DNA from: Cyanobacteria bacterium P01_A01_bin.123
GTDB taxonomy: Bacteria > Cyanobacteriota > Cyanobacteriia > Phormidesmidales > Phormidesmidaceae
DNA length: 54,698 bases
Direction: 5' to 3'
NCBI GenBank assembly: GCA_039815185.1
Contig: JBCBZT010000049.1
Coordinates: 1-54,698 of the forward strand
The notes under the pieces were generated by a model, which was not told the DNA's origin, ran no database searches, and was given only the letters and a program-made list of their open reading frames with translations. The position numbers and the translations under genes were made by a program. Positions 18,187-44,717 of the stretch are shown here, piece after piece (position 1 is the stretch's first letter; each line of letters starts with the position of its first letter).

Positions 18187-18257
18187 GGCGGCATGGCCAA
18201 GTGGTAAGGCAGAGGATTGCAAATCCTTTATCCCCAGTTCGAATCTGGGTGCCGCCT
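18187..18257 (+). tRNA. trnC: tRNA-Cys (GCA)
   Basis: Complete cloverleaf GGCGGCA...GAGGA-TT-GCA-AA-TCCTT...GTTCGAATC...TGCCGCC-T. Confidence 0.98.
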
Positions 18258-18269
18258 TTATTTATGTTG

Positions 18270-18438: not shown

Positions 18439-19557
18439 GTGACGGCAAACGGTAATAAGGCATTGAACATTGCCAACGGTCGGTTAAAAGCGGCAAAGAT
18501 TCCAGCCCGGATCAATATCCAAGATGGCAAGCTTTATTTGAGGGCCACGTTGCCCCCAAAGCCGGGTAGCACCAAAAGCACACCCTATCAGCAGCGGATT
18601 GCGTTGGGCCTTGATGCCGTTGGGCGCTGCATCAAAATTGCTGAGGATAAAGCCCGATTACTGGGCCTACAGCTTGAATCGGGTAATTTTGATTGGGAGC
18701 AATGGGGCACCACTAAGCGGGCTGAATCAGTAGTTGACTGGGTAGAACGGTTTGAAGCCGATTTTTTCAAGCGTGGGGGCACTCAAACAACCTGGAAGGG
18801 GGATTATCTGCAAAGCTTCCGCAAGCTGCCCCCAGATGCCCCGTTAACCCTGCCCTTACTGATATCGGTAGCTGAGAACCAAACTGCAAACAGTAAGCCA
18901 CGTCAGCGGGTTTGCATGGCCTTCAAGCGGTTAGCTGACTTTGCGGGCATCGAGGGCACTGATCAACTAACCGTCATCAGAGGCACCTATTCAAGTGATG
19001 AAGTTGATCCGCGTTCGTTACCCGATGACGAACAGTTAGCCATTTTCAGGGATTCGATTACAAACGCTGCCTGGCAATGGGTGTTTTCGATGATGGCTTG
19101 TTATGGCCTGAGACCCCACGAATGCTTTAAATGTGACTTATCGGAGTTTCCGACAATTCATGTTGAAGGCGATACGAAAACAGGTGCTAGATTTGTTTGG
19201 CCGCTCTATCCAGAATGGGCTAAACAATGGGGATTGCAGGATATCAAACTGCCTAATATTGATTTTGAAAACTTCACCAATGCCAAAATAGGCACTAAGG
19301 TTTCTAGATACTTTTATACTCAGAAATTTGACAAATGCAATGGCGACACTTTGACTGCTTATGAGCTGAGGCATTGTTACGCGAGGCGATTGCTACAGTT
19401 TGGGTTTAGTCCTGAGTTTGGGGCAAAGATGATGGGGCATAGCCCAGATGTTCACTGTCGGGTTTATCGGCGTTGGATTGATAAAGCAACCTATGAGGCT
19501 ATTTACGCCAAAACGATAGGCAATCCAGAGAGACCTAAGCCGCCTGTTCTGGCGTAA
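18439..19557 (+). CDS. Tyrosine recombinase / phage integrase
   Basis: Catalytic set appears intact: YGLRPHE, TKTG, LRHCYARR, MMGHS, VYRRW. Lies adjacent to the tRNA 3' end. Confidence 0.95.
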   Translation: MTANGNKALNIANGRLKAAKIPARINIQDGKLYLRATLPPKPGSTKSTPYQQRIALGLDAVGRCIKIAEDKARLLGLQLESGNFDWEQWGTTKRAESVVDWVERFEADFFKRGGTQTTWKGDYLQSFRKLPPDAPLTLPLLISVAENQTANSKPRQRVCMAFKRLADFAGIEGTDQLTVIRGTYSSDEVDPRSLPDDEQLAIFRDSITNAAWQWVFSMMACYGLRPHECFKCDLSEFPTIHVEGDTKTGARFVWPLYPEWAKQWGLQDIKLPNIDFENFTNAKIGTKVSRYFYTQKFDKCNGDTLTAYELRHCYARRLLQFGFSPEFGAKMMGHSPDVHCRVYRRWIDKATYEAIYAKTIGNPERPKPPVLA

Positions 19558-19624
19558 ATCAATTGCTTGAAAAATTCGAGGCGCTGCGCGCCAACAGAGG
19601 GCAAAAAGGCAAAAAGGAAAAGGG

Positions 19625-20476
19625 CTAGCTGGAAGCGTCCGTCGGGGCTGAACATACAACTCGAAAACCGATAAAGTAGAGGCGGAACACGGGGTCGTAG
19701 CTGAGGCGAGAGGCAGACCGGCAGTACCACGGAAAGTCGTCCCAAGAACCGCCGCGTCTGATACGACTTACGCTTTCATTCTCAGTTAACCAGACACTCC
19801 CGTCTCTAGGTGCACCTTTATAGCTATCGTGCCAGTGGTCTAAACACCATTCCCATACGTTGCCATGCATATCACATAGGCCCCAAGCATTGGCCACATC
19901 AAAGTAATCAACCGGGGTGGTTTCTTGACGATATTCGCCCTTTGGCCCACGACCATAGGCCCCATACTGCTCATTTGTGCCGTTGTAGTTGGCCAGATCG
20001 GTGGTGATGGTTTCACCAAAGTGAAAAGGGGTATCCGTTCCTGCTCGACAGGCATATTCCCACTCAGCTTCGGTCGGTAGGCGATACCCTCGTCTAGTGT
20101 GACGAGCCAGGCGATCGCAAAACTCCACTGCTTCATCCCAACTCACGCTCTCAACCGGGCGTTTATCCCCCTTGACTCGCGACGGATCAGGCTTTAACGC
20201 TTGCTTCACCAGTTCTAGATTTGCCACGAAGCGCCATTGGGCCTGGGTGACAGGATACTTACCCATAAAGAAGCTGGGCACGGTTACATTATGCTGAGGG
20301 CCTTCAGCATCTGTTCGGTCTAGCTCGTCGTCTGGGGAGCCCATTGTGAAGCTGCCACCAGGGATTTGCATCATCCGTAGCAGTACTCCCTCCCCTAGCA
20401 GCTCATCGAAACATGGGTGTTGGGCTTTGCGTTTATTGATGGTGATTTTGGGCTGGCTTTCTTGGGTGGTTGGCAT
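19625..20476 (-). CDS. FGE-sulfatase (SUMF1 / C-type lectin fold) protein, DGR target-like
   Basis: FTMGS, YPVTQAQW, YRLPTEAEWEYACRAGT, DMHGNVWEW and RGGSW...GFRVVC motifs. Confidence 0.95.
   Translation of the reverse strand: MPTTQESQPKITINKRKAQHPCFDELLGEGVLLRMMQIPGGSFTMGSPDDELDRTDAEGPQHNVTVPSFFMGKYPVTQAQWRFVANLELVKQALKPDPSRVKGDKRPVESVSWDEAVEFCDRLARHTRRGYRLPTEAEWEYACRAGTDTPFHFGETITTDLANYNGTNEQYGAYGRGPKGEYRQETTPVDYFDVANAWGLCDMHGNVWEWCLDHWHDSYKGAPRDGSVWLTENESVSRIRRGGSWDDFPWYCRSASRLSYDPVFRLYFIGFRVVCSAPTDASS
19652..19756 (-). repeat. DGR-type variable repeat VR1
   Basis: 105-bp segment homologous to 20617-20721 and 21615-21719. Differences are concentrated in codon positions 1-2. Confidence 0.85.
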
Positions 20477-20589
20477 GGGGGGGAAGCAGCTAGGAGTTAG
20501 AAGTTAGGAGGTTGTGAAGGCAGAACTTCAGCTAGAAAATTCGAGGCGCTACGCGCCAACAAAGGGCAAAAAACCAAAAGCGGAAAGGG

Positions 20590-21417
20590 CTAACTGGAAG
20601 AGTCCATCGGGGCAGCACACACAACTCGAAAACCGATAATGTAGTAGCGGACGACGGGAAAGTAGTTGAAGCAAAAGGCAGACCGGCAGAACCTCGGACT
20701 GTCGTCCCAAGAACCGCCGCGTAGGACACGACTGGCATCTTTGTCTTCAGTTAACCAGGCACGGCCATCTTCAGGTGCGTCTCCATAGCTGCCATGCCAG
20801 TGGTCTAAGCACCATTCATAAACATTGCCATGCATATCGCATAGGCCCCAGGCATTGGCTACATCAAAGTGATTTACAGGGGTGGTTTCTTCACGATACT
20901 CACCTTCTGGGCCACCGTTGTAAGTGTATCTGCCGTTGTAATTCGCTAGTTCTGTCGTTAGGGTTTGGCCAAACGAGAAGGGGGTTTTCGTGCCTGCTCG
21001 ACAGGCATATTCCCACTCGGCCTCACTGGGAAGACGGTAAGGGCGACCAGAGTAACGCGCCAGACGATCGCAGAACTCTACCGCCTCATACCAAGAAACT
21101 CGCTCTACGGGACGATTAGGGCCTTTGAAATTGGACGGATCGGTATCAAGTTCTCGATTTACTTCAGGCATCTTGGCCACCACACGCCATTGGGCTTGGG
21201 TAATGGGATAGCGCCCCATAAAAAAGGTTGGCACAGTGACATCATGCTGAGGGCCTTCATCATCTTCCCGATCAGGTTCATCTGATAGAGACCCCATGCT
21301 AAAGGTGTCACCGCGAATCAAAAGCATGTCGAGGGAAATGGCATCGCCAAGGCCCTCTAGGGGCTCAGTAAAGCATTGAGCAGTTGTCGGGGTGCGACGG
21401 AGGGTGAAGGGGGGCAT
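20590..21417 (-). CDS. FGE-sulfatase (C-type lectin fold) protein, DGR target-like
   Basis: Same FGE motifs; paralog of its neighbours. Confidence 0.95.
   Translation of the reverse strand: MPPFTLRRTPTTAQCFTEPLEGLGDAISLDMLLIRGDTFSMGSLSDEPDREDDEGPQHDVTVPTFFMGRYPITQAQWRVVAKMPEVNRELDTDPSNFKGPNRPVERVSWYEAVEFCDRLARYSGRPYRLPSEAEWEYACRAGTKTPFSFGQTLTTELANYNGRYTYNGGPEGEYREETTPVNHFDVANAWGLCDMHGNVYEWCLDHWHGSYGDAPEDGRAWLTEDKDASRVLRGGSWDDSPRFCRSAFCFNYFPVVRYYIIGFRVVCAAPMDSSS
20617..20721 (-). repeat. DGR-type variable repeat VR2
   Basis: Aligns to VR1 and VR3 without gaps. Confidence 0.85.
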
Positions 21418-21432
21418 CGGAGAAACACTGAA

Positions 21433-21580
21433 TGGGCCAGAGAACTCTTCGGTTACCCTACCAAGCTAACTGACCCTTTTGGTTTTCGGATGCCGTTGCC
21501 GACATCACAGGGATAGATCTGGACTCTTCAAAACACGCCCGACAGATTCCCACCTGCCAGTTCTGGCACTGAAGAGTATT
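21433..21580 (-). ncRNA. Structured non-coding segment, probable remnant of the DGR RNA region downstream of a template repeat
   Basis: Minus-strand stems CTCTTCA...TGAAGAG, GATGTCG-GCAA-CGGCATC and GGGTCAG...TTGGTAG...CGAA...CTGGCCC, located directly after VR3. Confidence 0.55.
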
Positions 21581-21596
21581 TCTCCTTCGGAGACGC

Positions 21597-24506
21597 TCAC
21601 GCGAACGGGGCAGCACACACAACTCGAAAACCGAAAGGGTTGAAGCGGACGTCGGGGAAGAAGCTGAGGCGATAGGCAGACCGGCAGTCCCCCGGATCGA
21701 CGTCCCAAGACCCGCCGCGTAGGATACGCCTTGCATTTTCGTTATTAGTTGACCAAGCACTGCCATCCTCCGTAGCACCTCGGTAACTGTCGTGATAGTG
21801 ATCACGACACCACTCATAAACATTTCCATGCATATCAGACAAACCAAAAGTGTTGGCTACACCAAAGTGATCAACAGGTGTAGTCTCTTCTCGATATTCT
21901 CCAGCAGGGCCATCCGCAAAGGTCGTTGTGCCCCGGTAGTTGGCCAGCTCTGATGAAATGGTTGCGCCAAAATGAAAAGGTGTTTCTGTCCCAGCACGAC
22001 AGGCATATTCCCACTCAGCTTCGGTAGGTAGGCGGTATTCTCTTTGGGTGTGATTAGAGAGGCGATCGCAAAACTCCACCGCTTCATACCAACTCACTTG
22101 CTCAACCGGACGATTATCCCCCTTAAAGCGCGACGGATCAGGATTTAACTTGCGGTTGACTTGCTCCAGACCAGCAACAAAACGCCATTGGGCCTGTGTG
22201 ATAGGGTAGCGCCCCATAGAGAACGGCTGGACGGTAACTTTGTGTTGAGGCCCTTCTCGGTCATATCGATCGGGTTCAGTATCTGGAGAGCCCATGGTGA
22301 AGGTATCACCCAGAATGTAGACCATTTCCACTCCCCCATCCTCTGCAATAACCTGTAAAACCTCTTTAACAGCAGCTAGCCCAGACCCCGTAGGCCCCTC
22401 TGCCCACTGCAACAAGGAATAAGTGCGCCTTTCTTGAGAGGAAGCCGTCGCAACGCCGTATGGTCTTCCCAAAGCAACCAACACCTGATCAAATTGCCCC
22501 TCAGGAAGTGCATTCAAGCAGCTGATGAGTGCTTGTTTTTGATCCGCAGCATCTTGAAGTTGAAGGTCGGGACTTGGCAAGCGACTCAGTACTTCAACAA
22601 AGCGTCGTGCTTGCCCTCGTCGCTTATTAATCACCCATTCAGCACGCTGACGGAACAACCCCCGCTGCTGTTTTTCAAGGGTTGCAATTTCAAATTCAAA
22701 CAGCTCTAGGCCATTAACAGAGTCTGACTCAAATGCGATGGTCGCAACTGTAAAGCCGTCCATCTGAATGGGTGGCCACTCAGCTTCAGGGTTAGGGAGA
22801 TCTTCAGCATCAATTAATTGAGCCTGCATAAAATCGAGAGTGCGTAGAGGCGGTATCTCAAAAGCAGGTCGCTGAATAAGTGAGCCAGACTCAACAGGGC
22901 GATCTAGAGTATCCACCAATGCTGCGTAGTCTCCCCCCATTTGCTGCAACACTTGCTTAGCAAGATTGGCAAATTTCAACAGGTCTGAACCGGTAGCTTC
23001 CCCTAACTCATTTTCTAGCTGTAGGAGCGCTGTGAAGCTGTAGATACTTCGATTCAACTTTTTGCCAATATATTGTGAAACCCGATCGAGTACTGCTTCC
23101 TTAACAGGAGTAGGCACCGAGGCAATCAGGGGTTCTCGCACATCTGGCAAAAAGTCATAGGTTGGTTGACTGTAAGAGGAAGAGCCTTCTCCTGTTGAAT
23201 CATCCGTGCGCTCGACCAGACCACTCATAAAAATCTCCGCTAGATGTAGCGGTGTGGACTCTGGCAGCATCGCCGCTTGTAAGAGATAGATAATCGGCAA
23301 GTCCACAGGCACCAACGCCATCAACCCAGCCAGCCGCTTTGCCAACCCAGACGCCGTTGTGGTGAACCGCTTCACCAGTTGCTCTGCTGTCAGGGGCATA
23401 GCTGAGGATGCTGAGGGGATCTGTAGGGTTTGCCATCCCTGATCAAACCAGATGCCTGCTGCCCAACTCTCGCCCCACCCAGACACCATCTTTGCCCATG
23501 GGGTCAATGAATTCGGCTCCAGAGTAATGACAGGTAGCTTTAAACCTTCAGATGCATTTTGCTCAGCACCAATAGGAGGCTCTTGAAACAAAAGTTGCTG
23601 GTTAGTTACACCCGGCATCCAAGCCCCTAACTGTACTTCTAGACCTGCGCTCAAAACCGTGCGCGACCATAGATGGCCAGGTAACAACTGCACAATTGCC
23701 AAAGGACTATGGGCTGCCCAAAGCTCTAGACACGCCTGATGCAGTTCGCCAGTGCGCCAAGCCGACGAAATACAGTCACTCACCAATAAGATCAACCGAC
23801 GCCCTGATGCATCAAGCAGTTCTTTAGGGCTGCGAGACGGTTGTTGAGACGTTTTTGTAGGTGACTTAGCAAACAGCTTAATTGCACCTGATGAGGTTTG
23901 AAGATGCCATACTGTGACCGCCCGAAAAGCCCCTTGACGCTCTAGTACCTGTTTGAAATCACGAATGGTCTCTCGCCAAAGAATGCTGGCCGCAGAGTCT
24001 TCAATCACCAATGCCACCTCTAGCCATCGTTCTTTGGCAGGTCGCACCACCGTCATGCAAAATCGTTGCTCTGCCGTTTGTTCTGCCGTGGCATCTTCGT
24101 CTAAAATCTGCTGCGTGTAGGAATCCACCTTACGCATCAGCGGGCGCAGGGCTCGACCAATGGCCAAGGTTTTTCGCAATGCCGGGGCCGTCGGGGCTTG
24201 AAATGGAATACCTTTCTTGGCGGGAGCTGATTGTTTGGCTTGCGGCTGAGTCCTGCCTGAATAAAGACCAATCCCAGGATCTGGAGGGGGTGGGGGAACT
24301 GGCTGAGACAGATTGGTTTGCTGCCGCATAGGCGTAGGTGATGCTTGAGGAGAGGATGCCTGGGAACTTTGGGTGATTTCTCCGTCCATATAGCGGGATA
24401 GCCACATCAAGTCAGCAATCTTTTCAGCATCCCAATCGATCCCAGCCCCTCTAAGGCGAGCAATTAGCTCTGATAATGCTGCATGAGGTGCTACCGAGTC
24501 GCTCAT
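21597..24506 (-). CDS. vWA-like (SAV_2336-type N-terminus) protein fused to a C-terminal FGE-sulfatase domain; vWA component of a ternary conflict system
   Basis: IGRALRPLMRKV, LEVALVIEDS, LILLVSDCIS and IVQLLP..LW, followed by the full FGE motif set. Confidence 0.88.
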   Translation of the reverse strand: MSDSVAPHAALSELIARLRGAGIDWDAEKIADLMWLSRYMDGEITQSSQASSPQASPTPMRQQTNLSQPVPPPPPDPGIGLYSGRTQPQAKQSAPAKKGIPFQAPTAPALRKTLAIGRALRPLMRKVDSYTQQILDEDATAEQTAEQRFCMTVVRPAKERWLEVALVIEDSAASILWRETIRDFKQVLERQGAFRAVTVWHLQTSSGAIKLFAKSPTKTSQQPSRSPKELLDASGRRLILLVSDCISSAWRTGELHQACLELWAAHSPLAIVQLLPGHLWSRTVLSAGLEVQLGAWMPGVTNQQLLFQEPPIGAEQNASEGLKLPVITLEPNSLTPWAKMVSGWGESWAAGIWFDQGWQTLQIPSASSAMPLTAEQLVKRFTTTASGLAKRLAGLMALVPVDLPIIYLLQAAMLPESTPLHLAEIFMSGLVERTDDSTGEGSSSYSQPTYDFLPDVREPLIASVPTPVKEAVLDRVSQYIGKKLNRSIYSFTALLQLENELGEATGSDLLKFANLAKQVLQQMGGDYAALVDTLDRPVESGSLIQRPAFEIPPLRTLDFMQAQLIDAEDLPNPEAEWPPIQMDGFTVATIAFESDSVNGLELFEFEIATLEKQQRGLFRQRAEWVINKRRGQARRFVEVLSRLPSPDLQLQDAADQKQALISCLNALPEGQFDQVLVALGRPYGVATASSQERRTYSLLQWAEGPTGSGLAAVKEVLQVIAEDGGVEMVYILGDTFTMGSPDTEPDRYDREGPQHKVTVQPFSMGRYPITQAQWRFVAGLEQVNRKLNPDPSRFKGDNRPVEQVSWYEAVEFCDRLSNHTQREYRLPTEAEWEYACRAGTETPFHFGATISSELANYRGTTTFADGPAGEYREETTPVDHFGVANTFGLSDMHGNVYEWCRDHYHDSYRGATEDGSAWSTNNENARRILRGGSWDVDPGDCRSAYRLSFFPDVRFNPFGFRVVCAAPFA
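21615..21719 (-). repeat. DGR-type variable repeat VR3
   Basis: Aligns to VR1 and VR2 without gaps. Confidence 0.85.
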
Positions 24507-25501
24507 CAGGCACCTGGCCCAGATAGGGGTTTCAACAGCTTATCTCGCAGTTGCTCTCTCGCTTTATCTGTCGGTATGCCACTCTGCCGTAGTAGATAAA
24601 TGGCGTTCAACAACTGATCAGTTGCTAATTCCTGGCCTTGTGTATCCCGCTTCTCTAAGAAGCTTTGAATAATGGATTTTGCTTCTTCCAAAACATTCTC
24701 ATCTCGGAGATGCTGCTGCACAATATCTGATAATTCAGCCTCGTTAGGTTCTCGCATATCCAATCGAATGCACCGCCGTAGAAATGGAGGTGGAAAATCT
24801 CGTTCACCGTTGCTAGTCAAAATCACAAAGGGAAAAGTATTGCACTGCACCTGCCCTGCTGGAATGGTCACGGTTGAGTCCTGGTTTTCATAGGCAGTAC
24901 TCACTTGCACGGTCGGCAACACTTCCTTGATACGCTCCAACTCAGGGATGCGATAGCGGCCTTCTTCGAAGGCATGGAGCAAATCGTTAGGGAGATCAAT
25001 ATCACTTTTGTCGATCTCATCAATCAGCAAGATACGAGGCCGCTTTAAATTTTCAACGGGCAATAAGGCTGTACCCAAAGGCCCTAAACGAATATATTTG
25101 CCAATATCTTTGAGCGTTTCACTCAGGTCATTAGACTGTCGCTCTTTTTGCTGAGAGTCTTGCAGACGCCCAATCGCGTCATAGCTATACAGGCCATCTT
25201 TGAGTGTGGTTCGGGTCGTGACTGGCCAGTAAAGAACTTCCCCCAGCTTTAACTCACGAGCCACAGCATAGGCCAGAGAAGTTTTTCCGGTTCCCGGTTT
25301 CCCCGTTATTAGTAGGGGGCGACGTAGATACAGTGCGGCATTCACCAAATCAATTTCTTCAGGTCTTGCCTTAAACGTGGCCCCTTTTTGTTGCTGTCGC
25401 GTTTGCTCATCTTTAAAGACACGCCAGTTAGGTGGGTCTGGCAAACGCTCCAAACCATCGTGGGGTTGTCCAGTCCCTTCAAAAATCTTCCAACTGGTCA
25501 T
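24506..25501 (-). CDS. MoxR family AAA+ ATPase
   Basis: VNAALYLRRPLLITGKPGTGKT, LLIDEIDKSDIDLPNDLL and TSNGERDFPPPFLRRC motifs. Confidence 0.95.
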   Translation of the reverse strand: MTSWKIFEGTGQPHDGLERLPDPPNWRVFKDEQTRQQQKGATFKARPEEIDLVNAALYLRRPLLITGKPGTGKTSLAYAVARELKLGEVLYWPVTTRTTLKDGLYSYDAIGRLQDSQQKERQSNDLSETLKDIGKYIRLGPLGTALLPVENLKRPRILLIDEIDKSDIDLPNDLLHAFEEGRYRIPELERIKEVLPTVQVSTAYENQDSTVTIPAGQVQCNTFPFVILTSNGERDFPPPFLRRCIRLDMREPNEAELSDIVQQHLRDENVLEEAKSIIQSFLEKRDTQGQELATDQLLNAIYLLRQSGIPTDKAREQLRDKLLKPLSGPGA

Positions 25502-27339
25502 AATAGCTGCTCATCAGAGTAGGTAATGCTAGGCGGCACACGATAAAAATCTTCCCACAGAAAGGATAGGTGATGCCCCAATTCTGGAGGGGCCTCTGGA
25601 TCACCATCTTCATCTAGCGCTGGCGTTTCCCGTCGCAAAGCACTCACTTTTTTCGGTACCTGTTCAAGGCAGTCATCCAAAATATCATTGTGCAAACGAT
25701 TAGCCAATTCACAACCCTGGCACCGCAGCCAAACAGCTGTTGGAGTTCCCGTTGCCAGCAGCACACCGATTTCTCCTTGCTTAGCAGCCTTGGGGAGTTT
25801 TTGCGTAAGCTTTAGTCCCAAAGCCGATTTGAGGGGTGTTTGCAAACTTTTGGCAGACAAGGCATCACCATCCACAAAGGCATCTATAGCCGCCGAATTG
25901 AGTTCAGTTTGCAAGCGATTCCATTTGGCTTCCCATAGCTTTTGCCCCCGTGCATACTCCAACCGTTCCTGGGAGCGGATCACAATATGAGCACAATCTG
26001 CATCGATCCCAAGCAGCATAGGGAATCCATATTCGTCCGGAACCAGGCATTGCTCAATGGGCTGATTAATCAGCGCCATCGGCAAAAAGAACTCAATAGT
26101 TAACTCCTGTAGTGACAGGCCACGTTTAGCAACTTGATCTACATAGACCGCTAAAAATATGGGCAGATGTTTGTAGTCGATACCATTCGTAAAGTCGATG
26201 GCGTCAGGGTTTTCAACGTATTTTTGCCAATCTGAGTCTGCTAAGGCTTCTGCCCCTTCTCCCGTTGTCGGGTCATAGCCCTCACCGGTGGCAGAATTGT
26301 ATCGCCTGGTATCAGGCACTATCCAAGCGTTCACTTGGTAAGGCTCCTTTTTAGTATTCCGATCTGCCTGAATACTGATCAACAAGCAGGGCTGAAATGG
26401 ATGTGCCTGTCGAGAGACGATTTCTTCTCGCTGTTGCTTTATTTGGGCCAACAAGGTTGAGAGCTCAATATCGTTATGTTTATAGCGCTCGATCCAGCCT
26501 AATAGTTTATCTTGAAGCTGTTCAACGCCTGGTAGGCCCCACAGGCAGGCGGCAAATTCCACCAACTTACCCTCTGACATCTGGGCAATGTCAGTGAGTT
26601 GTGATGCTAACTTATTTTGGAAAGGTTCTGACCAAGTATCAGGTCGGCACACCTTGTAGGCTGTCGTGATTTGTGACGCTAAGGTGCTCTGATGGGGGCG
26701 CAGCAATACTAACAGTGAGTGAAGCTTAACCTGGTTTAATGCAGCCTGGAGCTTTTGAATAGGCAGGATGAAGCCAACTTTAGCAGTGTCTTGTCCCTGG
26801 TGGCGGGCAACGACCATCCCTACAGTGCCTGGACTTTCATCCCGTTGCCATACTGGCGACCCGCTGAAACCTGGTTCAATGGCTAATCCAGGTTCTTTCG
26901 TATCTTCAACTTGCACCCATCCGCCGTCTACTTCGCCTCGGGTAACAGCAGTTAAATTGCGTCCAGCAGCGTCACTGCCTGGATAGCCAAAAATCTGTAG
27001 TGCCGCTCTATTGAATTGACGTAAGGGGTGTCTGGGGGCAGATGTTATCCCTAACGGAAGGGCTGAGGGTAAATACAATACTGCCGCATCTTGTCCATAG
27101 GTTGATGCTTCTAGCTCAAAAAAGATGACCTTGGCTAGCTGAGGCTCACTCGTATCAAAAAAGGTTATTTGCAGAGAAGCTCCTATTACTTCATCGGCAG
27201 CAAACAAAGCGGCTTCGACAACATGGGCACAGGTCAACACATAGTTCTCTGCTATCAAGAAACCAGTTCCAGCGATACTATCTGTGCTGTTCTGGTAATG
27301 AATTTTGGCGATCGCCCGTTTGCTAGATTCAAACGTCAT
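25498..27339 (-). CDS. Trypsin-like serine peptidase fused to VMAP (vWA-MoxR associated protein) domains
   Basis: Catalytic triad LTCAHVV / DAAVL / GFSGSPV; VMAP-C-like IEFFLP, IRSQERL, G.P.AVW.R and HLSFLWED. Confidence 0.88.
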   Translation of the reverse strand: MTFESSKRAIAKIHYQNSTDSIAGTGFLIAENYVLTCAHVVEAALFAADEVIGASLQITFFDTSEPQLAKVIFFELEASTYGQDAAVLYLPSALPLGITSAPRHPLRQFNRAALQIFGYPGSDAAGRNLTAVTRGEVDGGWVQVEDTKEPGLAIEPGFSGSPVWQRDESPGTVGMVVARHQGQDTAKVGFILPIQKLQAALNQVKLHSLLVLLRPHQSTLASQITTAYKVCRPDTWSEPFQNKLASQLTDIAQMSEGKLVEFAACLWGLPGVEQLQDKLLGWIERYKHNDIELSTLLAQIKQQREEIVSRQAHPFQPCLLISIQADRNTKKEPYQVNAWIVPDTRRYNSATGEGYDPTTGEGAEALADSDWQKYVENPDAIDFTNGIDYKHLPIFLAVYVDQVAKRGLSLQELTIEFFLPMALINQPIEQCLVPDEYGFPMLLGIDADCAHIVIRSQERLEYARGQKLWEAKWNRLQTELNSAAIDAFVDGDALSAKSLQTPLKSALGLKLTQKLPKAAKQGEIGVLLATGTPTAVWLRCQGCELANRLHNDILDDCLEQVPKKVSALRRETPALDEDGDPEAPPELGHHLSFLWEDFYRVPPSITYSDEQLL

Positions 27340-27703
27340 CCGTACTGCCTGATGCTTTCTCTTGATCCTTTCCCCACTTCAGCTTGACTTCAAAGGTCAC
27401 ATCTCCACCGACAGAGCCAAACACAACACCTGCTTCGGCAGCGAGTTTGAGCCCAAAGGTCACTTCCACTTCATCAGCAGGCGTTGTTAGTCCTGACCTC
27501 AACCGAGACACAACCGTTGAAGCAACAGGTTTGATGGTGTCTAGTGCTTGTTCAAGGGTTTGAGTTGCCTGATAGACCATCTGCTTCGTATTCACCGAAG
27601 CTACCCGCTGAATAGAGCCGCCTTGAGTGGGCTTCGGTGTATCTACCTCAACCAGAAAGGCAGTCCCGTCTTCGAGCTTGAATTGGGCTAGTTCTTTTTC
27701 CAT
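27329..27703 (-). CDS. Trypsin-co-occurring (Trypco1 / CU044_2847 family) protein
   Basis: DGT.FLVEV and PADEVEVTFGLKLAAEAG....FEVKLKW; overlaps the start of the peptidase gene. Confidence 0.88.
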   Translation of the reverse strand: MEKELAQFKLEDGTAFLVEVDTPKPTQGGSIQRVASVNTKQMVYQATQTLEQALDTIKPVASTVVSRLRSGLTTPADEVEVTFGLKLAAEAGVVFGSVGGDVTFEVKLKWGKDQEKASGSTDDV

Positions 27704-27862
27704 CAGTGTTAGTACGCTAGGACTCGTCCCAGTGTAAGATTTTGCAGCTTTAGGTTAAAGTCATTTCATCTAATATCCACAAGCTGTGGCGCAAAAATCC
27801 AGAAAAACTATGGATTCTCTGCTACTAAAAATGTCAGCGAATTGCATCAGGAACTGCCATTG

Positions 27863-28939: not shown

Positions 28940-30370
28940 CTACACCCCCTCCAACCCTGTGGATAACCCCTTCTCTCCCCCAGACCCCCACACTTCCCCT
29001 GGAGGTAAATATTCTCCGGGCAGAGATTTCAACGCTACACTCTTCATACTTGTGTCAAGGTGTAAAAAAACGTTGCCCATCAAGGGTTGTGACGGCTTCG
29101 GTTGATGATCTTCTAGGCTGGGTATTTGCCCTTTATTTCGGGCTAGAACCCCTGCCAATAGGAAGTTTTTACACCCTTCGTCGCAGACGGCTGGATGCCA
29201 TAGCTCTTTATGCTTGTAGAGTGTCTTTGTTGAGACACCGATTTTGTTGACCAGCGCTTTAACCCAATCGGTAACGGTTTGAAGCTTGTCTCCTAGTTCA
29301 GCATGTAGCGCGATGACGGCCCTATATATCCTCTGAGATGCTTCATCCGCCCTCTGCTGGTTGCCATTGGGCACATCCACAGAGACGGGGTAGGGAGCTT
29401 TTTTGTAGGGTTGTGTCCCCGCTGGATAGTAGTAGTTCTCAACCGATCGCGCCCAGCTAGCAGCACGGCGGTTGATCTCTAATCGGTGCTGACACCAGCG
29501 GTCATAGCCGGGAGATGATTGGGCAGTGTCGCTGGTGTACTGGGCTAAGTCAGCCCCCTCTAGCCCTAGAAAGACACGGCCATAGGTGGCAATGCTCTTA
29601 AGGATGTGGTTGGTTTGCCCGAAGTCTGTCCAGCCTTCACCTATCTCGCTCTCCAAGTCTTCTCGCCACTGGCGCAACGGGGTCAATATGCGGCGTCTTC
29701 CCCGGTTGCGTTTGGCAGTGGCGAGCGCCTGTTTCAGCAATTCATCGTCTTGGGCCTGGGCAGCATAGTCCCAGCTCCAAAAGAAGCGTTTGAGTTCTCC
29801 CCCCACGGGTTGCAAATCATGGTTAAGCAGTGCCGAACCGCTGCCGGGTTGCAATGGCAGACGATGGCCGTTGTACTCAACAAATTCACCCAACCAGCAC
29901 CGGCCAAAGGTTTTACGGTTTGGGAAAATCTCTAATTGACCAGGCGCGATGGTGAACCCCTGCGCTTTTAGTGCGCCCTTGATGGCGACGGCCAGATTAA
30001 ACGTGTTGACTGGCTCAGGCAGAGGGATATAGATGTGGATGCCCCCTGACCAAGATGATCTCACCTTGACAGTTCGCACGATGCCGAGGGTTTCTAATGC
30101 ACCCTCGATGTCAGCGATCGCTTTCGAGTTTAGATAGTCACTCTTGCAGTCGATGTCGAGCATCGCGTAAGCGGTTGTGCTGCCAAACCGGACGCCGATT
30201 TGGACGGCAGCATCCTGCCAGTGCTTCCAGAGCAATCGGGGTCGCAAGGGATAGCGTGTCTCGGTTACCCAGTTATGATCATCATGCTTTAACAAAAACT
30301 GCCAGGGGTAGCGGCAAAAGGTTTCGCAGATGCGTTGACCCATCAGGTCTTGGGGTAGCGGGTTTGTCAT
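28940..30370 (-). CDS. Putative AEP-type primase / replication protein
   Basis: LDID motif, RSSWSGGIHIY, LEIFPN, RLPL; C-terminal HTH-like GVSTKTLYK. Confidence 0.7.
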   Translation of the reverse strand: MTNPLPQDLMGQRICETFCRYPWQFLLKHDDHNWVTETRYPLRPRLLWKHWQDAAVQIGVRFGSTTAYAMLDIDCKSDYLNSKAIADIEGALETLGIVRTVKVRSSWSGGIHIYIPLPEPVNTFNLAVAIKGALKAQGFTIAPGQLEIFPNRKTFGRCWLGEFVEYNGHRLPLQPGSGSALLNHDLQPVGGELKRFFWSWDYAAQAQDDELLKQALATAKRNRGRRRILTPLRQWREDLESEIGEGWTDFGQTNHILKSIATYGRVFLGLEGADLAQYTSDTAQSSPGYDRWCQHRLEINRRAASWARSVENYYYPAGTQPYKKAPYPVSVDVPNGNQQRADEASQRIYRAVIALHAELGDKLQTVTDWVKALVNKIGVSTKTLYKHKELWHPAVCDEGCKNFLLAGVLARNKGQIPSLEDHQPKPSQPLMGNVFLHLDTSMKSVALKSLPGEYLPPGEVWGSGGEKGLSTGLEGV

Positions 30371-30420
30371 GATAAGTTAGATGCTCGGTAAATGGAAAAG
30401 GCAGGTAACTCCCTTGTGAG

Positions 30421-30627
30421 TTACCTGCCTTTTTTTGTCGGTTGGTTTAGGAAAGCTTGTAAATCAAGCGGTTCGATCAATCTCAGGGTTTGTTCCCACA
30501 ACCGGATTTCTCGCTCTCCGGGCGATCGCCGTACAAAGTCTTGCACGACGTATTTGAGCGTCTGGATTTGGCTTGCATTACGCTGAATGGCTGGTTCTAT
30601 ACGTTGTTGCCAAAGTTGCTGATCCAT
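30421..30627 (-). CDS. Small hypothetical protein
   Basis: 68-aa ORF heading the rep/xis operon. Confidence 0.55.
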   Translation of the reverse strand: MDQQLWQQRIEPAIQRNASQIQTLKYVVQDFVRRSPGEREIRLWEQTLRLIEPLDLQAFLNQPTKKGR

Positions 30628-30652
30628 TGGGAAAAACCTATGAACATTGTTG

Positions 30653-30684
30653 AATAGCAGCCCTTAAGGCCAAGGGCTGCTATT
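30653..30684. terminator. 13-bp perfect hairpin in the divergent intergenic region
   Basis: AATAGCAGCCCTT-AAGGCC-AAGGGCTGCTATT followed by Ts. Confidence 0.6.
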
Positions 30685-30772
30685 TTTAGCCTGTGACACA
30701 GATCACAGGACAATTAGTCCGAGCGGGAATGCCGGGAAGCTTTACCCCGCTGGAAGATGTCGTTTAGCAGGA

Positions 30773-30800
30773 CTGACGAAGTGACTAGACATTTCGTCAG
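30773..30800. promoter_or_regulatory. Candidate operator palindrome
   Basis: CTGACGAAGTGACTAGACATTTCGTCAG is a near-perfect 28-bp dyad immediately before the HTH gene. Confidence 0.55.
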
Positions 30801-30803
30801 ACG

Positions 30804-31091
30804 ATGTGTATGGTAATGCCTAGTGACCAAAAAGATCAAGCGGAGACACCACCGTTGAAGCAGATCCGAGAAGCCCTCAACCTTTCTCAAGAAAAGTTCG
30901 CACGGTTTATAGGTTGTTCTGCCAAGAAAATCTCTAGAGGTGAAAACGGCGGAAACGTCCTGTGGACTATGGCTGAAGCGAAAGCACTGGATAAGTTCAT
31001 GCAGAAAGAATTTGGATTAACGATCCATGATCTGCCTGACGACATGAGTCAGCCAATTGCAAAGCTTACTTTCCTGGAAAAGGCTGGGTAA
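30804..31091 (+). CDS. Cro/C1-type (XRE) HTH regulator
   Basis: LKQIREALNLSQEKFARFIGCSAKKISRGENG. Confidence 0.9.
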   Translation: MCMVMPSDQKDQAETPPLKQIREALNLSQEKFARFIGCSAKKISRGENGGNVLWTMAEAKALDKFMQKEFGLTIHDLPDDMSQPIAKLTFLEKAG

Positions 31092-31384
31092 TGACCAAAC
31101 GATTAAGCCGGGGGCGGCTGTCAACCTCAACCCCCGGTTACCCTACTGTGGAGGATGAACCAATGAGGCCGATACGAATTAATGATGCGGTAAAGTACCG
31201 TCAATTCAAGGCTTATAGAGAACAGTTAGAGTTTCATAGGATACCCTCGATGCTGGCTCATGATGTTGCCTGGGTTCTCATCTTTGATGAGGTGCCCAAG
31301 CATCACCACAGTGAGGCGGATCAGGCAATGGTGAGAGCGGCTTATGATTTGCTGTTCCGGGGTCATCGGGGAGGTGTGGCGTGA
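31091..31384 (+). CDS. Hypothetical protein
   Basis: Translationally coupled (TAATG) to the HTH gene. Confidence 0.65.
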   Translation: MTKRLSRGRLSTSTPGYPTVEDEPMRPIRINDAVKYRQFKAYREQLEFHRIPSMLAHDVAWVLIFDEVPKHHHSEADQAMVRAAYDLLFRGHRGGVA

Positions 31385-31884
31385 TTGATCCAGATGCAAA
31401 TGCATTTCCCATCTTTGAAGCTAGCGGACGGTACAACCCTTTAGAAGCTGGTCTTACAAAGCGTGAGTATTTCGCGGCGATGGCAATGCAAGGCATTTTG
31501 GGCAGTGACGTTGAAGGTACTTGCAGCTACGAAGCTTTTGCCAAATCTAGCGTTAAGCAAGCTGATGCATTGATTGCAGCGCTCAACAGTCCTGAGCATG
31601 AACCTGTAGCTGACTCCACACTAAATTTGCAAGACATCATTGCAACAACATGTTTGTCGATTGGTGGAGACTATAACGTTAGAGTCCGACTCTCTACCCT
31701 TCGCCAAAATTTGAGCAGCCTACCTCGGACAGAACTTGATCAGGCATTGAAAGACATGCAGATTTCTGGGCGGCTTGTTCTTATGACCTTGGATAACCCT
31801 CAAGAAATTACTGCGGATGATGAAGCCGCAGCAATCGATATGGGCTCACCAAATAAGCGTCACATTTTGTATTTGAATAGATGA
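31381..31884 (+). CDS. Phage-type hypothetical protein
   Basis: AFP...GLTKREYFAAMAMQG...ADALIAAL motif, common in phage accessory proteins. Confidence 0.8.
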   Translation: MIDPDANAFPIFEASGRYNPLEAGLTKREYFAAMAMQGILGSDVEGTCSYEAFAKSSVKQADALIAALNSPEHEPVADSTLNLQDIIATTCLSIGGDYNVRVRLSTLRQNLSSLPRTELDQALKDMQISGRLVLMTLDNPQEITADDEAAAIDMGSPNKRHILYLNR

Positions 31885-32225
31885 ACTTAAAGCACTTGGC
31901 GATCGCCATGGCTTTATCCACTGTCACCCTCATTGGCTTTGCTTGCACCAGGGCAGAGCTTAAAACCTTCTTAAATACTGAATCCGAACCTGAAGCTATG
32001 GGGGCATCCCCTGAGCCATGGGGAACGGGCAACATGCTATCGCAAGACCAAGTGAATGTGATGGGGGGATTAGCTTGGCCGCAAGAGTACAGAGACATGA
32101 TCGGCACGTTTGGTTACCCAGAAAAGCGGAATCACGGAGTTGACTACTATCTCTCACCAGAAGGGAAATGGATAGCTGTTTACTACAACAGCGCGGGGCA
32201 AGCGACCGGATACGGCTATGAATAG
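31881..32225 (+). CDS. Putative lipoprotein / exported protein
   Basis: Signal-like N-terminus ending GFAC; ATGA overlap with the upstream gene. Confidence 0.7.
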   Translation: MNLKHLAIAMALSTVTLIGFACTRAELKTFLNTESEPEAMGASPEPWGTGNMLSQDQVNVMGGLAWPQEYRDMIGTFGYPEKRNHGVDYYLSPEGKWIAVYYNSAGQATGYGYE

Positions 32226-32308
32226 ACCCGCTTTTCAGTAGCGACAGGGCAACCCATTTGCCGGGGTTGGTAACACAGTAATTTATTGCAACTAAGGAGA
32301 CTACAATT

Positions 32309-32575
32309 ATGGGGTGGCCGTTTAAGACTCGTATGGCAGCCGTCAATAATGCGGTTGAAGGAGCTAAATTTCAGGAAAAAAAGCGGAAGGAAGCTGAAAA
32401 TGACGGGAACGAAACAAAGGAAAAGCGTCATAGAGACTATCGTGAGCACACTTTTAAAGGTGCTGAGCAACATTTGGGGAAAGCTCGTGAGGAAACCAAC
32501 GAAGCTATCAAACAGCGAGACTCAGACGGAATTCCAAGTGCCGAAGAAGGAAGTAGAAAAGGTTGGTTTTGGTGA
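32309..32575 (+). CDS. Charged hypothetical protein
   Basis: ATG at 32309 preceded by AAGGAG; reads as a helical charged protein. Confidence 0.6.
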   Translation: MGWPFKTRMAAVNNAVEGAKFQEKKRKEAENDGNETKEKRHRDYREHTFKGAEQHLGKAREETNEAIKQRDSDGIPSAEEGSRKGWFW

Positions 32576-32624
32576 ATATCATGCAGACTTCTTCACCATT
32601 AACTTTACTACTTTCGGAGACAAC

Positions 32625-32960
32625 ATGAATGTTCTCGTAATGGCTGATGAATTGCCGGAACCCTTTTATCCTGACCTATTAAAGTTTGCTGCTCACTACT
32701 CTCCGTCAGGGATTGTTGAATTAGAAATTGCCGGGGAAAATCGCAGCGTTCTTTATCAAGCCGTTCCCGTTATGGATCTTGAGAAAGCCCATAGTGAGCT
32801 TTCTCAAATTGAAGAGGGGTGGCAATTAAAAGATGATGGAAAACTGTTAATTCCGCCACTAGAGTCCAAAATCCCCTACGACAAGTTCCGAGATGTTCTA
32901 AGGTCGGCTTCTTATGAAGCTATGACTTTAGTTAATCAAGACCTTTTGAATGCAGCATAA
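32625..32960 (+). CDS. Hypothetical protein (C-terminal part of the 32286-32960 frame)
   Basis: GGAG precedes the ATG of MNVLVMADEL. The upstream part of this frame overlaps another ORF. Confidence 0.5.
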   Translation: MNVLVMADELPEPFYPDLLKFAAHYSPSGIVELEIAGENRSVLYQAVPVMDLEKAHSELSQIEEGWQLKDDGKLLIPPLESKIPYDKFRDVLRSASYEAMTLVNQDLLNAA

Positions 32961-33159
32961 GCTTATATTATGACTCTAGCTATTGATTAGTTTAAATAAC
33001 TCTTTTTGGAAATATAACCTTCTGTATCTCTCGCTATACTCCAAAGATCGCGTTAGCTGGACTAAGCACATCATTAGCCAAGCAATAATGGCTACCAGTA
33101 TATTTATCAGAACATCTTCTGAAGACATAGCACCCACTAAAACGATAATTTGGAGTGCC

Positions 33160-33459
33160 CTAACTGCTCCGGTTGCGATTCAAGATCTCGCTAATTGATT
33201 CATCTGAGCCACGGGTAACCAGGATTTGCAAAAAGCTCTTTACATCTCTGATATCTGCCTCTAAGTTGTCCAACCTTCGATCCATTTCTCGGCTTTGCTG
33301 TGTGATGATGCTAGACATCTGCTCATACTGCCTCTTGAGGTGCCCAAAATCTCGTTGGGCCGCATATTGCTTTTCAATCGAACCTTTATACCAAAGCAGT
33401 GCACCAGCAGCAAAGGAAATTGCTCCTAACGCTATAGATAGAACATTTCCCCAGTCCAT
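33160..33459 (-). CDS. Small membrane-anchored coiled-coil protein
   Basis: N-terminal TM segment followed by a heptad-like helix. Confidence 0.7.
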   Translation of the reverse strand: MDWGNVLSIALGAISFAAGALLWYKGSIEKQYAAQRDFGHLKRQYEQMSSIITQQSREMDRRLDNLEADIRDVKSFLQILVTRGSDESISEILNRNRSS

Positions 33460-33462
33460 AGT

Positions 33463-33795
33463 TTAGATCCACTCGCTAAGAGAAACAGCCCAATTAATTG
33501 CAATTGTATTAGCTGGATAAAGCCTTTTCCTAACTTGCACCTTCGGAAACTCAGCATCTATCGGCAACAGGAAATCCAGCCGATAAACCTCTTCTACGGC
33601 CCCCTTTGGGTACAACTGTACCCAATCAGCACTGAATAAATCAGCTTCCCACTGCAACCGTAGAAACCCACGGGGAAACCGCCCTGCTCTAAAGTTGCCC
33701 GTGAAACTAGCCCTGATGACATCACTTGTCAGCGATCGTGAAATTGTTTGCCAGTCATCCCCCGCAGAGATCGACCCGATCGCCCGCCACACCAT
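33463..33795 (-). CDS. Hypothetical beta-rich protein (putative virion component)
   Basis: Coupled in the minus-strand operon; alternating beta-strand pattern. Confidence 0.65.
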   Translation of the reverse strand: MVWRAIGSISAGDDWQTISRSLTSDVIRASFTGNFRAGRFPRGFLRLQWEADLFSADWVQLYPKGAVEEVYRLDFLLPIDAEFPKVQVRKRLYPANTIAINWAVSLSEWI

Positions 33796-34037
33796 TAAAA
33801 AATCACCCAGTCATCATCAGCCTGAATGATGTCTTGCTCCCTTTCCTCATACTCACCCGAGTTGAGATAGTCCCGCGCCTGGGCTTGGGTGACAGGTTCC
33901 ATCACCTCAGACCCAGGACGGACAATAAACGTAAAATCCCCCCCAGTGGCCGCTGTAACTTCCCGCCAGTTTGGGGGCGGGGTTTGATACAGCGTCAAAT
34001 TAAACAGCGGATCGCCGGGGAGAATTAGCTGAGTCAT
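33795..34037 (-). CDS. Hypothetical phage-like protein
   Basis: MTQLILPGDPLFNLTL start follows the stop of the upstream gene; TAATG coupling downstream. Confidence 0.65.
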   Translation of the reverse strand: MTQLILPGDPLFNLTLYQTPPPNWREVTAATGGDFTFIVRPGSEVMEPVTQAQARDYLNSGEYEEREQDIIQADDDWVIF

Positions 34038-34041
34038 CACA

Positions 34042-34638
34042 CTAAGGCGTCTGTAAGGGGTCTTGACCTTCAGATTGATATTTCCAACCATCCGCTAACT
34101 GTGAGTTGGGATCAACAAAGGTGCTAATCGTATTGGTTTCATCCCCCAACACGATGGTTTGATAAGCTCTAGGCGGCTTCGGACTAGATGCTCCCCAAAT
34201 CAAATCTGAATCATCAGACGTGGCCGCCCGGACTCCCATCTGAGTTAAATCAGCTTGGTACGCTTGCCAGTTGCGTAGCGGAATATTCCAAGCATATTTA
34301 ACCCCCAGCAGCGTCACGTACACAGAAATAGAAAACTGAGTTGATCCTCCCCTGCGAATCTTGGCCTTCCCCACCCGCCATCCCTGCGTCCTCGCCGTGG
34401 GAATCGCCGCTACATCGATAAAACTGCTCACTGTACCCGAGGCAAACCGCCTTGATGCCCGAGCAGGCTTCGGGCTATTCGCCCCAATCACCGTACCCGC
34501 TGGGGTATCCCCCGTAATCTCGTTGTGGCCCAGCTGGGCACTTTGGGCCGTATCAATATTGGTCTTGAACCCATAGTTGAATAACGCCCCATTAAAGGGC
34601 ACCACCGACACCAATCGCCGCGAATCATAAACCCCCAT
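34042..34638 (-). CDS. Hypothetical protein with internal duplication (putative structural)
   Basis: Strong RBS AGGAGG; repeated motif GANSPKPARA / GASSPKPPRA. Confidence 0.8.
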   Translation of the reverse strand: MGVYDSRRLVSVVPFNGALFNYGFKTNIDTAQSAQLGHNEITGDTPAGTVIGANSPKPARASRRFASGTVSSFIDVAAIPTARTQGWRVGKAKIRRGGSTQFSISVYVTLLGVKYAWNIPLRNWQAYQADLTQMGVRAATSDDSDLIWGASSPKPPRAYQTIVLGDETNTISTFVDPNSQLADGWKYQSEGQDPLQTP

Positions 34639-34689
34639 CGGGTTATCCTCCTGTTTATTGGATTAATTAACTTGATTGACTGTGGAGGA

Positions 34690-35046
34690 CTAGACCGCGC
34701 CAGTAATTTCAGACTCCTGAAGCGGCACTGACACCCGAATCGTATGCGTTTTAACTGATACGATACTGCCGTCTGTTTGGGTGACTGGGTTGCCCCTTGT
34801 GGGCGATGGGAAGCCGTTTAAGGGCGTTGTGGGGGCTGGGTCAGTGGAGTTATAAGCAACCTGTGCGGTGCTGGCTCCCGACAACAGCTTAGAAATCGCT
34901 TCAGATACTTTTTCGTCCGTCAACGCAACAGCCGTTTCACCCATCAGTGTCTTAAGGCTAATGGTGACATCATTGTTGCCAGCATCCTCAACGAGCGCAT
35001 TAGCGGGCAACTGAGCTGCCAGGTTAGTAAAAGTTAGATCCGCCAT
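34690..35046 (-). CDS. Hypothetical protein (putative structural), paralog of 35213-35557
   Basis: Shares AD..F..L.A.LP.N, NDV.IS.K, AQ..YN and V.VPL...EITG with the neighbour. Confidence 0.8.
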   Translation of the reverse strand: MADLTFTNLAAQLPANALVEDAGNNDVTISLKTLMGETAVALTDEKVSEAISKLLSGASTAQVAYNSTDPAPTTPLNGFPSPTRGNPVTQTDGSIVSVKTHTIRVSVPLQESEITGAV

Positions 35047-35212
35047 GATTTCAATCCTTGCTCAAGCCATTTGAACAAGCTCAGCATAGCCGAATCAAAC
35101 TGCCGCAAACCCCTGCTATTGCTGACTTAAATCGTTTGAAATTGTTGTAGGAACCCTTAGGGTTCTGACAAACCTCCAACAACTTAGAAGGGTGCCATTA
35201 ATTTTTATTAAG

Positions 35213-35557: not shown

Positions 35558-35610
35558 CTTGGAAGCCTTTCGATAAAATTTGAAAATATCTTAACGCTGG
35601 GAGTTCAGCT

Positions 35611-36426: not shown

Positions 36427-36428
36427 TC

Positions 36429-38515: not shown

Positions 38516-38517
38516 TC

Positions 38518-40041: not shown

Positions 40042-40043
40042 CC

Positions 40044-40862: not shown

Positions 40863-40867
40863 CACTT

Positions 40868-42802: not shown

Positions 42803-42840
42803 AGTTTGATCCAAGAATTCGACAGTTATTTTGACCCGCT

Positions 42841-44674: not shown

Positions 44675-44717
44675 AGGTATTGAGCTTTGTGAAACGTCTA
44701 AGGTGTAGTAATTTTTG

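What the first reader, a model, noticed from the sequence alone, without database searches (positions are those of the whole stretch)
19625..21719. Three tandem lectin-fold genes carry a DGR hypermutation signature, yet no template or RT is present
Seen: the final ~35 codons of the three FGE genes (19652-19756, 20617-20721, 21615-21719, minus strand) align without gaps. Constant codons are nearly identical even at wobble sites, while variable codons differ at positions 1-2 and mostly keep position 3: TTT/AGT/GAT, TGG/AGG/GGG, TAC/TTC/GAC, AGC/AAC/AGC, CTC/TAC/TTC, TTT/ATT/CCT, ATC/ATC/TTC. This is the reverse of neutral drift. Known: adenine-specific mutagenesis of AAC/AAT codons by DGRs gives this pattern, and cyanobacterial DGRs target FGE/CLec domains. 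Inferred template: CGCGGCGGTTCTTGG AAC AAC AAT CCG AGG AAC TGCCGGTCTGCC AAT CGC AAC AAC AAC AAC CCC GAC AAC CGC AAC AAC AAT ATC GGTTTTCGAGTTGTGTGT. I found no such A-rich copy, avd or DGR RT in the window, so these are trans-serviced or orphaned targets.
Basis: partly seen in the sequence, partly recalled or inferred. Interest (0 to 1): 0.88.

Follow-up and report, generated by a model that had tools for sequence, protein, structure and literature searches.

The report
Frozen hypermutation targets, template deleted
Three lectin-like sensor genes of a cyanobacterial defence-type operon were once rewritten by a targeted-mutation element that has since been deleted, most likely by recombination between its own repeats; this is decay of a known system, and the same scar recurs in other cyanobacteria.

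Summary
20 of 25 sites that vary among the three VRs fall on adenines of a real template from a relative. The genes end a Trypco1–trypsin/VMAP–MoxR–vWA/CLec operon in a tRNA-Cys island, a published DGR-linked system (PMC7159879, PMC10907252). No template, Avd or DGR RT was found in the assembly, so the targets are orphaned rather than trans-serviced.

Relatives read vWA/CLec–avd–RT–TR–Spacer–CLec–CLec, so a VR×TR crossover in a 29-nt constant block removed about 1.8 kb. The junction lies inside one source-run contig.

The same fusion occurs at a second locus of this genome and in 10 of 146 other cyanobacterial Spacer loci, two of them with template sequence inside the gene. 12 of 13 fusions keep a normal short C-terminus, against 24 of 124 template frames, hinting at selection on the frozen gene. 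The scan noted decayed DGRs before on other DNA. Known system; the recurrent exit route was not found in my searches.

The parts
21597..24506 (-). Target 1: vWA-type N-terminus (SAV_2336 N-term) fused to a C-terminal FGE/CLec domain, 969 aa, intact
   Evidence: NF041121 434 bits over cut-off 200; PF03781 at residues 727-963
21615..21719 (-). VR3, the variable region of target 1; 21 of 30 template adenines changed; now fused to the template's 3' flank
21606..21634 (-). Inferred crossover interval: the 29-nt constant block between the last mutated VR base and the start of template-type flank
   Evidence: alignment with templates; last variable template-A site at 21635; inference
21581..21605 (-). 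25-nt insert (two tiny hairpins) in the template-type flank; supplies target 1's stop codon
   Evidence: same or similar insert at the same site in L138, L118/L186, L225, L264; DNA fold
21429..21580 (-). Orphaned DGR Spacer RNA (3' flank of the lost template) with GNRA hairpin and the Spacer strand of the cPRT-stop duplex, whose upstream partner is gone
   Evidence: 86% over 150 nt to the segment right after the template in L025; Rfam RT-14 full-length, 35.9 bits, below gathering 48.1; duplex -7.4 kcal/mol against mean -18.4 in 54 intact loci
20590..21417 (-). Target 2: stand-alone FGE/CLec protein, 275 aa, intact
   Evidence: PF03781
20617..20721 (-). VR2; 18 of 30 template adenines changed, 2 private non-A changes
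20536..20616 (-). VR-type 3' flank of target 2 (pyrimidine tract and small hairpin), shared with target 3 and absent behind VR3
   Evidence: 85.7% over 84 nt to 19571-19654; fold; role as IMH/hairpin is recalled, not tested
19625..20476 (-). Target 3: stand-alone FGE/CLec protein, 283 aa, intact
   Evidence: PF03781
19652..19756 (-). VR1; 21 of 30 template adenines changed, 2 private non-A changes
19571..19651 (-). VR-type 3' flank of target 3
24506..25501 (-). MoxR-type AAA ATPase
   Evidence: AAA_5 over cut-off, weak bpMoxR hit below cut-off; position in the operon
25498..27339 (-). Trypsin-like peptidase fused to VMAP-M1 and VMAP-C
   Evidence: PF13365, PF19963, PF20028 all over cut-off
27329..27703 (-). 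Trypco1 adaptor
   Evidence: PF19493
18187..18257 (+). tRNA-Cys, the island's integration site
18212..18266 (+). Left att site; an exact 55-nt copy lies on contig C82 at 223616-223562; island about 49.6 kb
   Evidence: C130 and C82 overlap by 47 nt
18439..19557 (+). Putative integrase of the island
   Evidence: no Pfam or NCBIfam hit; 97% identical to P0009, named 'integrase' by NCBI

Best explanation
This is a cyanobacterial VMAP ternary conflict operon on an integrative island. Its three CLec/FGE tips were diversified by a DGR that sat in cis between target 1 and target 2 (order vWA/CLec-avd-RT-TR-Spacer-CLec-CLec). VR3 and the template were direct repeats about 1.8 kb apart. A crossover in their shared 3' constant block deleted avd, RT and TR in one step and joined the mutated VR3 to the template's Spacer. 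All three targets are now frozen. Shown: the adenine signature, the Spacer remnant, the gene order in relatives, the absence of the machinery from the assembly, and recurrence. Inferred: recombination as the route, and that retrohoming has stopped. Taken from papers, not tested: the CLec tips bind an invader ligand and signal through vWA and MoxR to the protease effector.
For: 20 of 25 variable sites on template adenines. Spacer directly behind VR3, where relatives have it behind TR. Intact three-target order in L180 and, downstream part, in L179; L189 has the identical collapsed order. VR-to-TR distances 1797 nt (L180) and 1911 nt (L179). L138/L191 is a VR-5'/TR-3' chimera inside an intact gene, and the L248 gene ends in near-pure template, as crossovers at other constant blocks predict. 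No TR, Avd or DGR RT in G000. The island is assembled through to its right att site. One contig of run X1 spans 20995-22022 with no differences. Private non-A changes in all three VRs; X6 shows the consensus base at both VR2 sites and X3 at one. The cPRT-stop partner strand is lost.
Against: G000 is a 133-contig assembly with 6% contamination; an unbinned plasmid or phage with a compatible DGR cannot be excluded. Related strains (X3, X6, P0011/P0085) seem to lack the cassette too, yet differ at template-A positions, which needs independent losses or exchange of the target block. X1 may be the source of the window, so it is not independent. The contigs laid drop rare variants. No intact direct ancestor of this island was found in 173 family genomes (best match 71-73% over part of MoxR-VMAP).
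Confidence: 0.85

Rival explanations
1. Same deletion, but made by the DGR's own cDNA: a mutagenised cDNA anneals to VR3 at one end and to the chromosomal Spacer at the other and bridges out avd-RT-TR.
For: 11 of 13 fusions carry a fully mutated VR joined to template-type flank; Spacer primes cDNA synthesis in the Bordetella DGR (bioRxiv 10.1101/2023.10.23.563531, passages).
Against: Two fusions keep unmutated template inside the gene (L138/L191, L248), as plain crossovers predict. The 3' block is the longest perfect repeat, so plain recombination also predicts most junctions there.
Confidence: 0.12
2. Targets 2 and 3, which keep their VR-type flanks, are still serviced in trans by a DGR on an unassembled or transient element.
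For: Trans service is inferred for other loci (PMC10907252, passages) and remote targets are common in cyanobacteria (PMC7517822, passages). Strains without the cassette differ at template-A sites.
Against: No template in G000. Every template found differs at about 6 or more non-A sites per VR. Private non-A changes remain unrepaired. The CLec genes are 82-90% identical to P0085/P0011 outside the VR while MoxR is 99%, which points to block exchange.
Confidence: 0.08
3. Mis-assembly: the assembler jumped from VR3 to the template's flank and dropped the cassette.
For: VR and TR share a 29-nt block; the genome is metagenome-derived.
Against: An independently built contig of X1 spans the junction; a contig of X3, from another study, is colinear over 19569-27814 (8245 against 8246 nt). 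The cassette is nowhere else in the assembly. Fusions also occur on 5.9-Mb and 5.6-Mb contigs (L229, L248).
Confidence: 0.03
4. No DGR: diversifying selection plus gene conversion between tandem paralogues produced the pattern.
For: Gene conversion can homogenise wobble sites.
Against: It does not explain the match to template adenines (p=1.5e-9) or the Spacer remnant.
Confidence: 0.01

Closest known systems
DGR-associated cyanobacterial VMAP ternary systems (Kaur et al. 2020, PMC7159879; passages read)
   Same: Trypco1, trypsin-VMAP, MoxR and vWA fused to an FGS/CLec domain with a hypervariable VR; the paper reports a DGR link for about 80% of cyanobacterial and gammaproteobacterial systems.
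   Different: There the template was confirmed nearby or elsewhere in the genome; here none exists and only the Spacer survives.
Thiohalocapsa PB-PSB1 DGR 7 and DGRs 4/5; cyanobacterial clade 5E (Doré et al. 2024, PMC10907252; passages read)
   Same: VMAP system with CLec targets and incomplete DGR machinery; past diversification offered as the explanation for DGR 7.
   Different: Loss there is by MITE arrays and transposons, and DGRs 4/5 match a template in trans; here it is a clean VR-to-Spacer join with no template in the genome.
Remote or remnant variable proteins of cyanobacteria (Vallota-Eastman et al. 2020, PMC7517822; passages read)
   Same: [quoted passage not shown]
   Different: The passages I read give no mechanism or scar; their remote targets were defined against a template in the same genome.
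Bordetella phage BPP-1 DGR RNA, avd-TR-Spacer (Handa et al., bioRxiv 10.1101/2023.10.23.563531; passages read)
   Same: Spacer with a GNRA-capped stem and a cPRT-stop duplex, reported as conserved in cyanobacteria.
   Different: Here the Spacer lacks its template and its upstream pairing strand.
Rfam RT-14 motif (RF02921; Weinberg et al. 2017, PMC5737381; passage read)
   Same: Full-length model match to the Spacer here and to three other Spacers.
   Different: All four scores (32.5-36.5 bits) are below the gathering score of 48.1; the passage assigns RT motifs no definite element.

Membership tests
Active diversity-generating retroelement | VR at the 3' end of a CLec-fold gene, with differences from TR at adenines | tested here: met
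   20 of 25 variable sites on adenines of a relative's template; PF03781
Active diversity-generating retroelement | Cognate template repeat in the genome | tested here: not met
   blastn and motif searches of G000 found none
Active diversity-generating retroelement | DGR-class reverse transcriptase | tested here: not met
   Three RTs: a broken group II intron type and two long DRT/UG-like proteins, 27-29% to a DGR RT
Active diversity-generating retroelement | Avd accessory protein | tested here: not met
   Only a 26-bit hit against cut-off 80, a small gene amid fatty-acid genes; tblastn nothing under E 0.5
Active diversity-generating retroelement | Spacer RNA and upstream strand forming the cPRT-stop duplex | tested here: not met
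   Spacer present; duplex -7.4 against mean -18.4 kcal/mol in 54 intact loci
Active diversity-generating retroelement | Ongoing A-restricted polymorphism in the population | not testable with these tools
   Only contigs were available; they drop rare variants
VMAP ternary conflict system | VMAP protein with N-terminal peptidase | tested here: met
   VMAP-C, VMAP-M1, Trypsin_2 over cut-off
VMAP ternary conflict system | MoxR-like AAA ATPase next to VMAP | tested here: met
   AAA_5 over cut-off; bpMoxR weak; adjacent gene
VMAP ternary conflict system | vWA component fused to an effector or sensor domain | tested here: met
   NF041121 over residues 26-485 plus FGE; that NF041121 is this system's vWA is recalled, not from a call
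VMAP ternary conflict system | Anti-invader activity | not testable with these tools
   Predicted in PMC7159879 and PMC10907252; no experiment here
Rfam RT-14 RNA | Score at or above gathering threshold 48.1 | tested here: not met
   35.9 bits, full-length, E 0.026

The most novel reading that the evidence does not exclude
VR-by-TR self-deletion is a selected, one-way lock-in step of cyanobacterial DGRs: a lineage that has found a useful set of sensor tips drops avd-RT-TR in one event that leaves the target gene whole, while intact islands circulate and re-supply diversity by block exchange. About 7% of cyanobacterial Spacer loci (10 of 146 outside this genome) would be such locked states, found across six families and invisible to RT-anchored DGR searches; the orphan Spacer is a marker for finding them.
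Probability: 0.25. Interest if true: 0.65.

Novelty: new member of a known kind. Interest (0 to 1): 0.36.

Why it matters
The locus itself is an ordinary member of a published system. What it adds is a recognisable and countable exit route for DGRs. A target gene fused to the Spacer marks a DGR that removed itself. RT-anchored surveys miss such loci, so past hypermutation is undercounted. The short-tail bias suggests frozen sensors stay under selection, which makes the 2020 speculation about removal after an optimal variant testable.

Tried and rejected
An exact degenerate VR pattern over GTDB genomes found 0 loci. The Spacer pattern found 0 loci in viral contigs. No close intact copy of the island in 173 family genomes. 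No RNA holder was listed, which says nothing on expression. Exact cluster look-up gave singleton clusters for all three targets. 67 CRISPR spacers of the island matched no DGR locus; the best hits were 16 of 42 and 21 of 44 nt. The idea that the 25-nt insert arose to repair the fusion was weakened: similar inserts sit at the same site behind templates (L118/L186, L225). The idea that VR3-Spacer is a new template was rejected on the lost duplex partner. The weak Avd hit on C6 was rejected. The upstream-Spacer duplex beats swapped partners only modestly (-18.4 against -16.8; 44 of 54 above the swapped median; 11 of 65 loci dropped for lack of the anchor motif), so I claim no covariation. Paper searches for VR-TR recombination or deletion and finds in PMC5758913, PMC7517822, PMC10907252, PMC3091744, bioRxiv 2025.08.18.670894 and 2024.11.15.621889 (passages only) gave no description of VR-Spacer fusion. 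Supplements were not read and may bear on this, as may subscription papers. No structure or complex prediction was run.
Full report
OBSERVATION. Variation is 11/10/4 by codon position against 15/15/37 in the 56 codons upstream (p=8e-4), and same-residue codons differ in 2 of 18 against 21 of 28. With the best of 43 templates, 20 of 25 variable sites are adenines (p=1.5e-9). The DGR signature is real.

CONTEXT. The genes close an operon Trypco1, trypsin-VMAP, MoxR, vWA-CLec, CLec, CLec. It lies in an island at tRNA-Cys whose 55-nt att repeat recurs on contig C82. C130 and C82 overlap by 47 nt, giving about 49.6 kb with type III-B cas genes and 69 CRISPR repeats. Kaur et al. (PMC7159879) and Doré et al. 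(PMC10907252) describe this system and its DGR link (passages). The host is a cyanobacterium by the names of its closest proteins; the best run is labelled marine metagenome.

NO MACHINERY. blastn and motif searches find no template in G000. Its three RTs are a broken group II type and two long DRT/UG-like proteins. A relative's DGR RT and Avd find nothing credible.

THE SCAR. The 180 nt between target 1 and target 2 match, at 86% over 150 nt, the segment directly behind the template in L025, and hit the same place in other loci. This is the Spacer RNA; it also gives a sub-threshold full-length RT-14 match. Intact relatives read vWA/CLec-avd-RT-TR-Spacer-CLec-CLec (L180; L179 for the downstream part), and L189 has exactly the window's collapsed order. 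VR1 and VR2 share a VR-type flank that VR3 lacks. The junction falls in the 29-nt constant block 21634-21606, and about 1.8-1.9 kb is missing. The upstream strand of the cPRT-stop duplex described by Handa et al. (passages) went with it: -7.4 kcal/mol against a mean of -18.4 in 54 intact loci. All three VRs have private non-A changes (2, 2, 1), while 62 of 85 VRs beside a template have none (one non-cognate pair dropped). That fits drift after retrohoming stopped.

NOT AN ASSEMBLY ERROR. One X1 contig spans 20995-22022 with no differences; X1 may be the window's source. An X3 contig from another study is colinear over 19569-27814 with 618 differences. An X6 contig has 302 nt where the window has 184, too little for the cassette and with a different junction. 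Five orthologues from a named MAG all list an 8606-nt contig, against a span of 8406 nt in the window, again leaving no room (indirect). X6 and that MAG may be one lineage and are not counted separately.

AGAINST A SIMPLE STORY. These strains differ from the window at template-A positions; only 1 of 16 and 3 of 16 such residues are shared with P0011 and P0085. Rewriting therefore happened after the lineages split. Independent losses explain this, since crossovers in the same block give the same junction. So does exchange of the target block: the CLec genes are 82-90% identical outside the VR while MoxR is 99% and VMAP 97%. Trans service is not strictly excluded.

RECURRENCE. G000 has a second VR-Spacer fusion on C6, from another DGR family. 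The Spacer search hit 50 of 173 family genomes (77 rows, 76 loci) and 69 of 401 class genomes (72 loci outside the family). All were classified by eye from script output, with contig-edge and fragment loci left in the denominator. Direct fusions: 3 of 74 in the family outside G000 (L116, L123, L138) and 7 of 72 outside it (L229, L233, L247, L248, L257, L263, L264), so 10 of 146, in six families counting G000's. A pattern scan gave 1 of 29 metagenome loci (L094) and 0 precise and 1 imprecise of 35 genome loci. L138 and L248 keep template sequence inside the gene, which is the signature of a crossover between the repeats. Other decay routes (RT or avd deletions, insertions) are also common in these sets. 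Of 10 other genomes with a precise or imprecise fusion tested alongside G001 and three intact controls, Avd over the cut-off was found in G149, G467 and G237 and not in G105, G193, G457, G434, G325, G362, G323 or G080.

SELECTION HINT. Normal targets stop within 12 codons of the VR (160 of 163). 12 of 13 fusions do too, against 24 of 124 template-Spacer frames. I set the threshold after seeing the first six fusions and kin are not independent, so the p value (2e-7) overstates. It suggests that fusions leaving a normal C-terminus are the ones that persist. That is purifying selection on the frozen gene, not proof that freezing was favoured.

MECHANISM. Shown: DGR-type rewriting, loss of avd-RT-TR, the Spacer scar, recurrence. 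Inferred: crossover between direct repeats; targets frozen. From papers only: CLec tips sense an invader and relay through vWA and MoxR to the protease.

NOVELTY. The system is published, and incomplete DGRs at such loci are published (PMC10907252). Removal after an optimal variant was speculated (PMC7517822). The scan noted decayed DGRs on other DNA, including a target fused to its template. I did not find VR-Spacer fusion described in the searches listed under Tried and rejected. Verdict: a new member of a known kind, interest 0.36; the lock-in reading has probability about 0.25.

Noticed in passing
G000:C6:61857-63585 (L188): A second CLec target gene (526 aa) whose VR is followed at once by a Spacer RNA from a different DGR family; a second collapse in the same genome.
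   Followed up: partly
window 43856-54698, continuing on C82: Type III-B CRISPR-Cas (Cmr2/Cas10, Cmr3, RAMP, CARF-like gene) and a 69-repeat array inside the same tRNA-Cys island.
   Followed up: partly
window 28940-42859: Several long island ORFs (476, 639, 507, 272, 579 and 271 aa) with no Pfam or NCBIfam hit.
   Followed up: no
window 21581-21605; L138, L118/L186, L225, L264: A 25-nt two-hairpin insert sits at the same spot just 3' of the repeat in several unrelated DGR families; in the window and L138 it supplies the stop codon.
   Followed up: partly
L178/L194 (G078:C40): A template whose 3' half has been overwritten by VR-like sequence while keeping its own flank; the RT gene beside it is frameshifted.
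   Followed up: no
L263 (G237:C55): avd and RT are retained upstream of a target whose VR is fused to the Spacer; enzyme present, template lost at this locus.
   Followed up: no
window 21434-21576; L094, L113, L116: Rfam RT-14 matches these DGR Spacers full-length below threshold, suggesting RT-14 is a DGR Spacer-type RNA.
   Followed up: partly
window 19625-21417 against P0011 and P0085: The CLec genes are far more diverged between close strains (82-90% outside the VR) than MoxR (99%) or VMAP (97%), suggesting exchange of the target block.
   Followed up: partly
L001, L002, L003: A group II intron-type RT with an internal stop (C8) and two DRT/UG-like RTs (C2, C131) elsewhere in the genome.
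   Followed up: partly
window 19568-20536, run X6: One X6 contig joins 19568 to 20536, a variant that lacks target 3.
   Followed up: no
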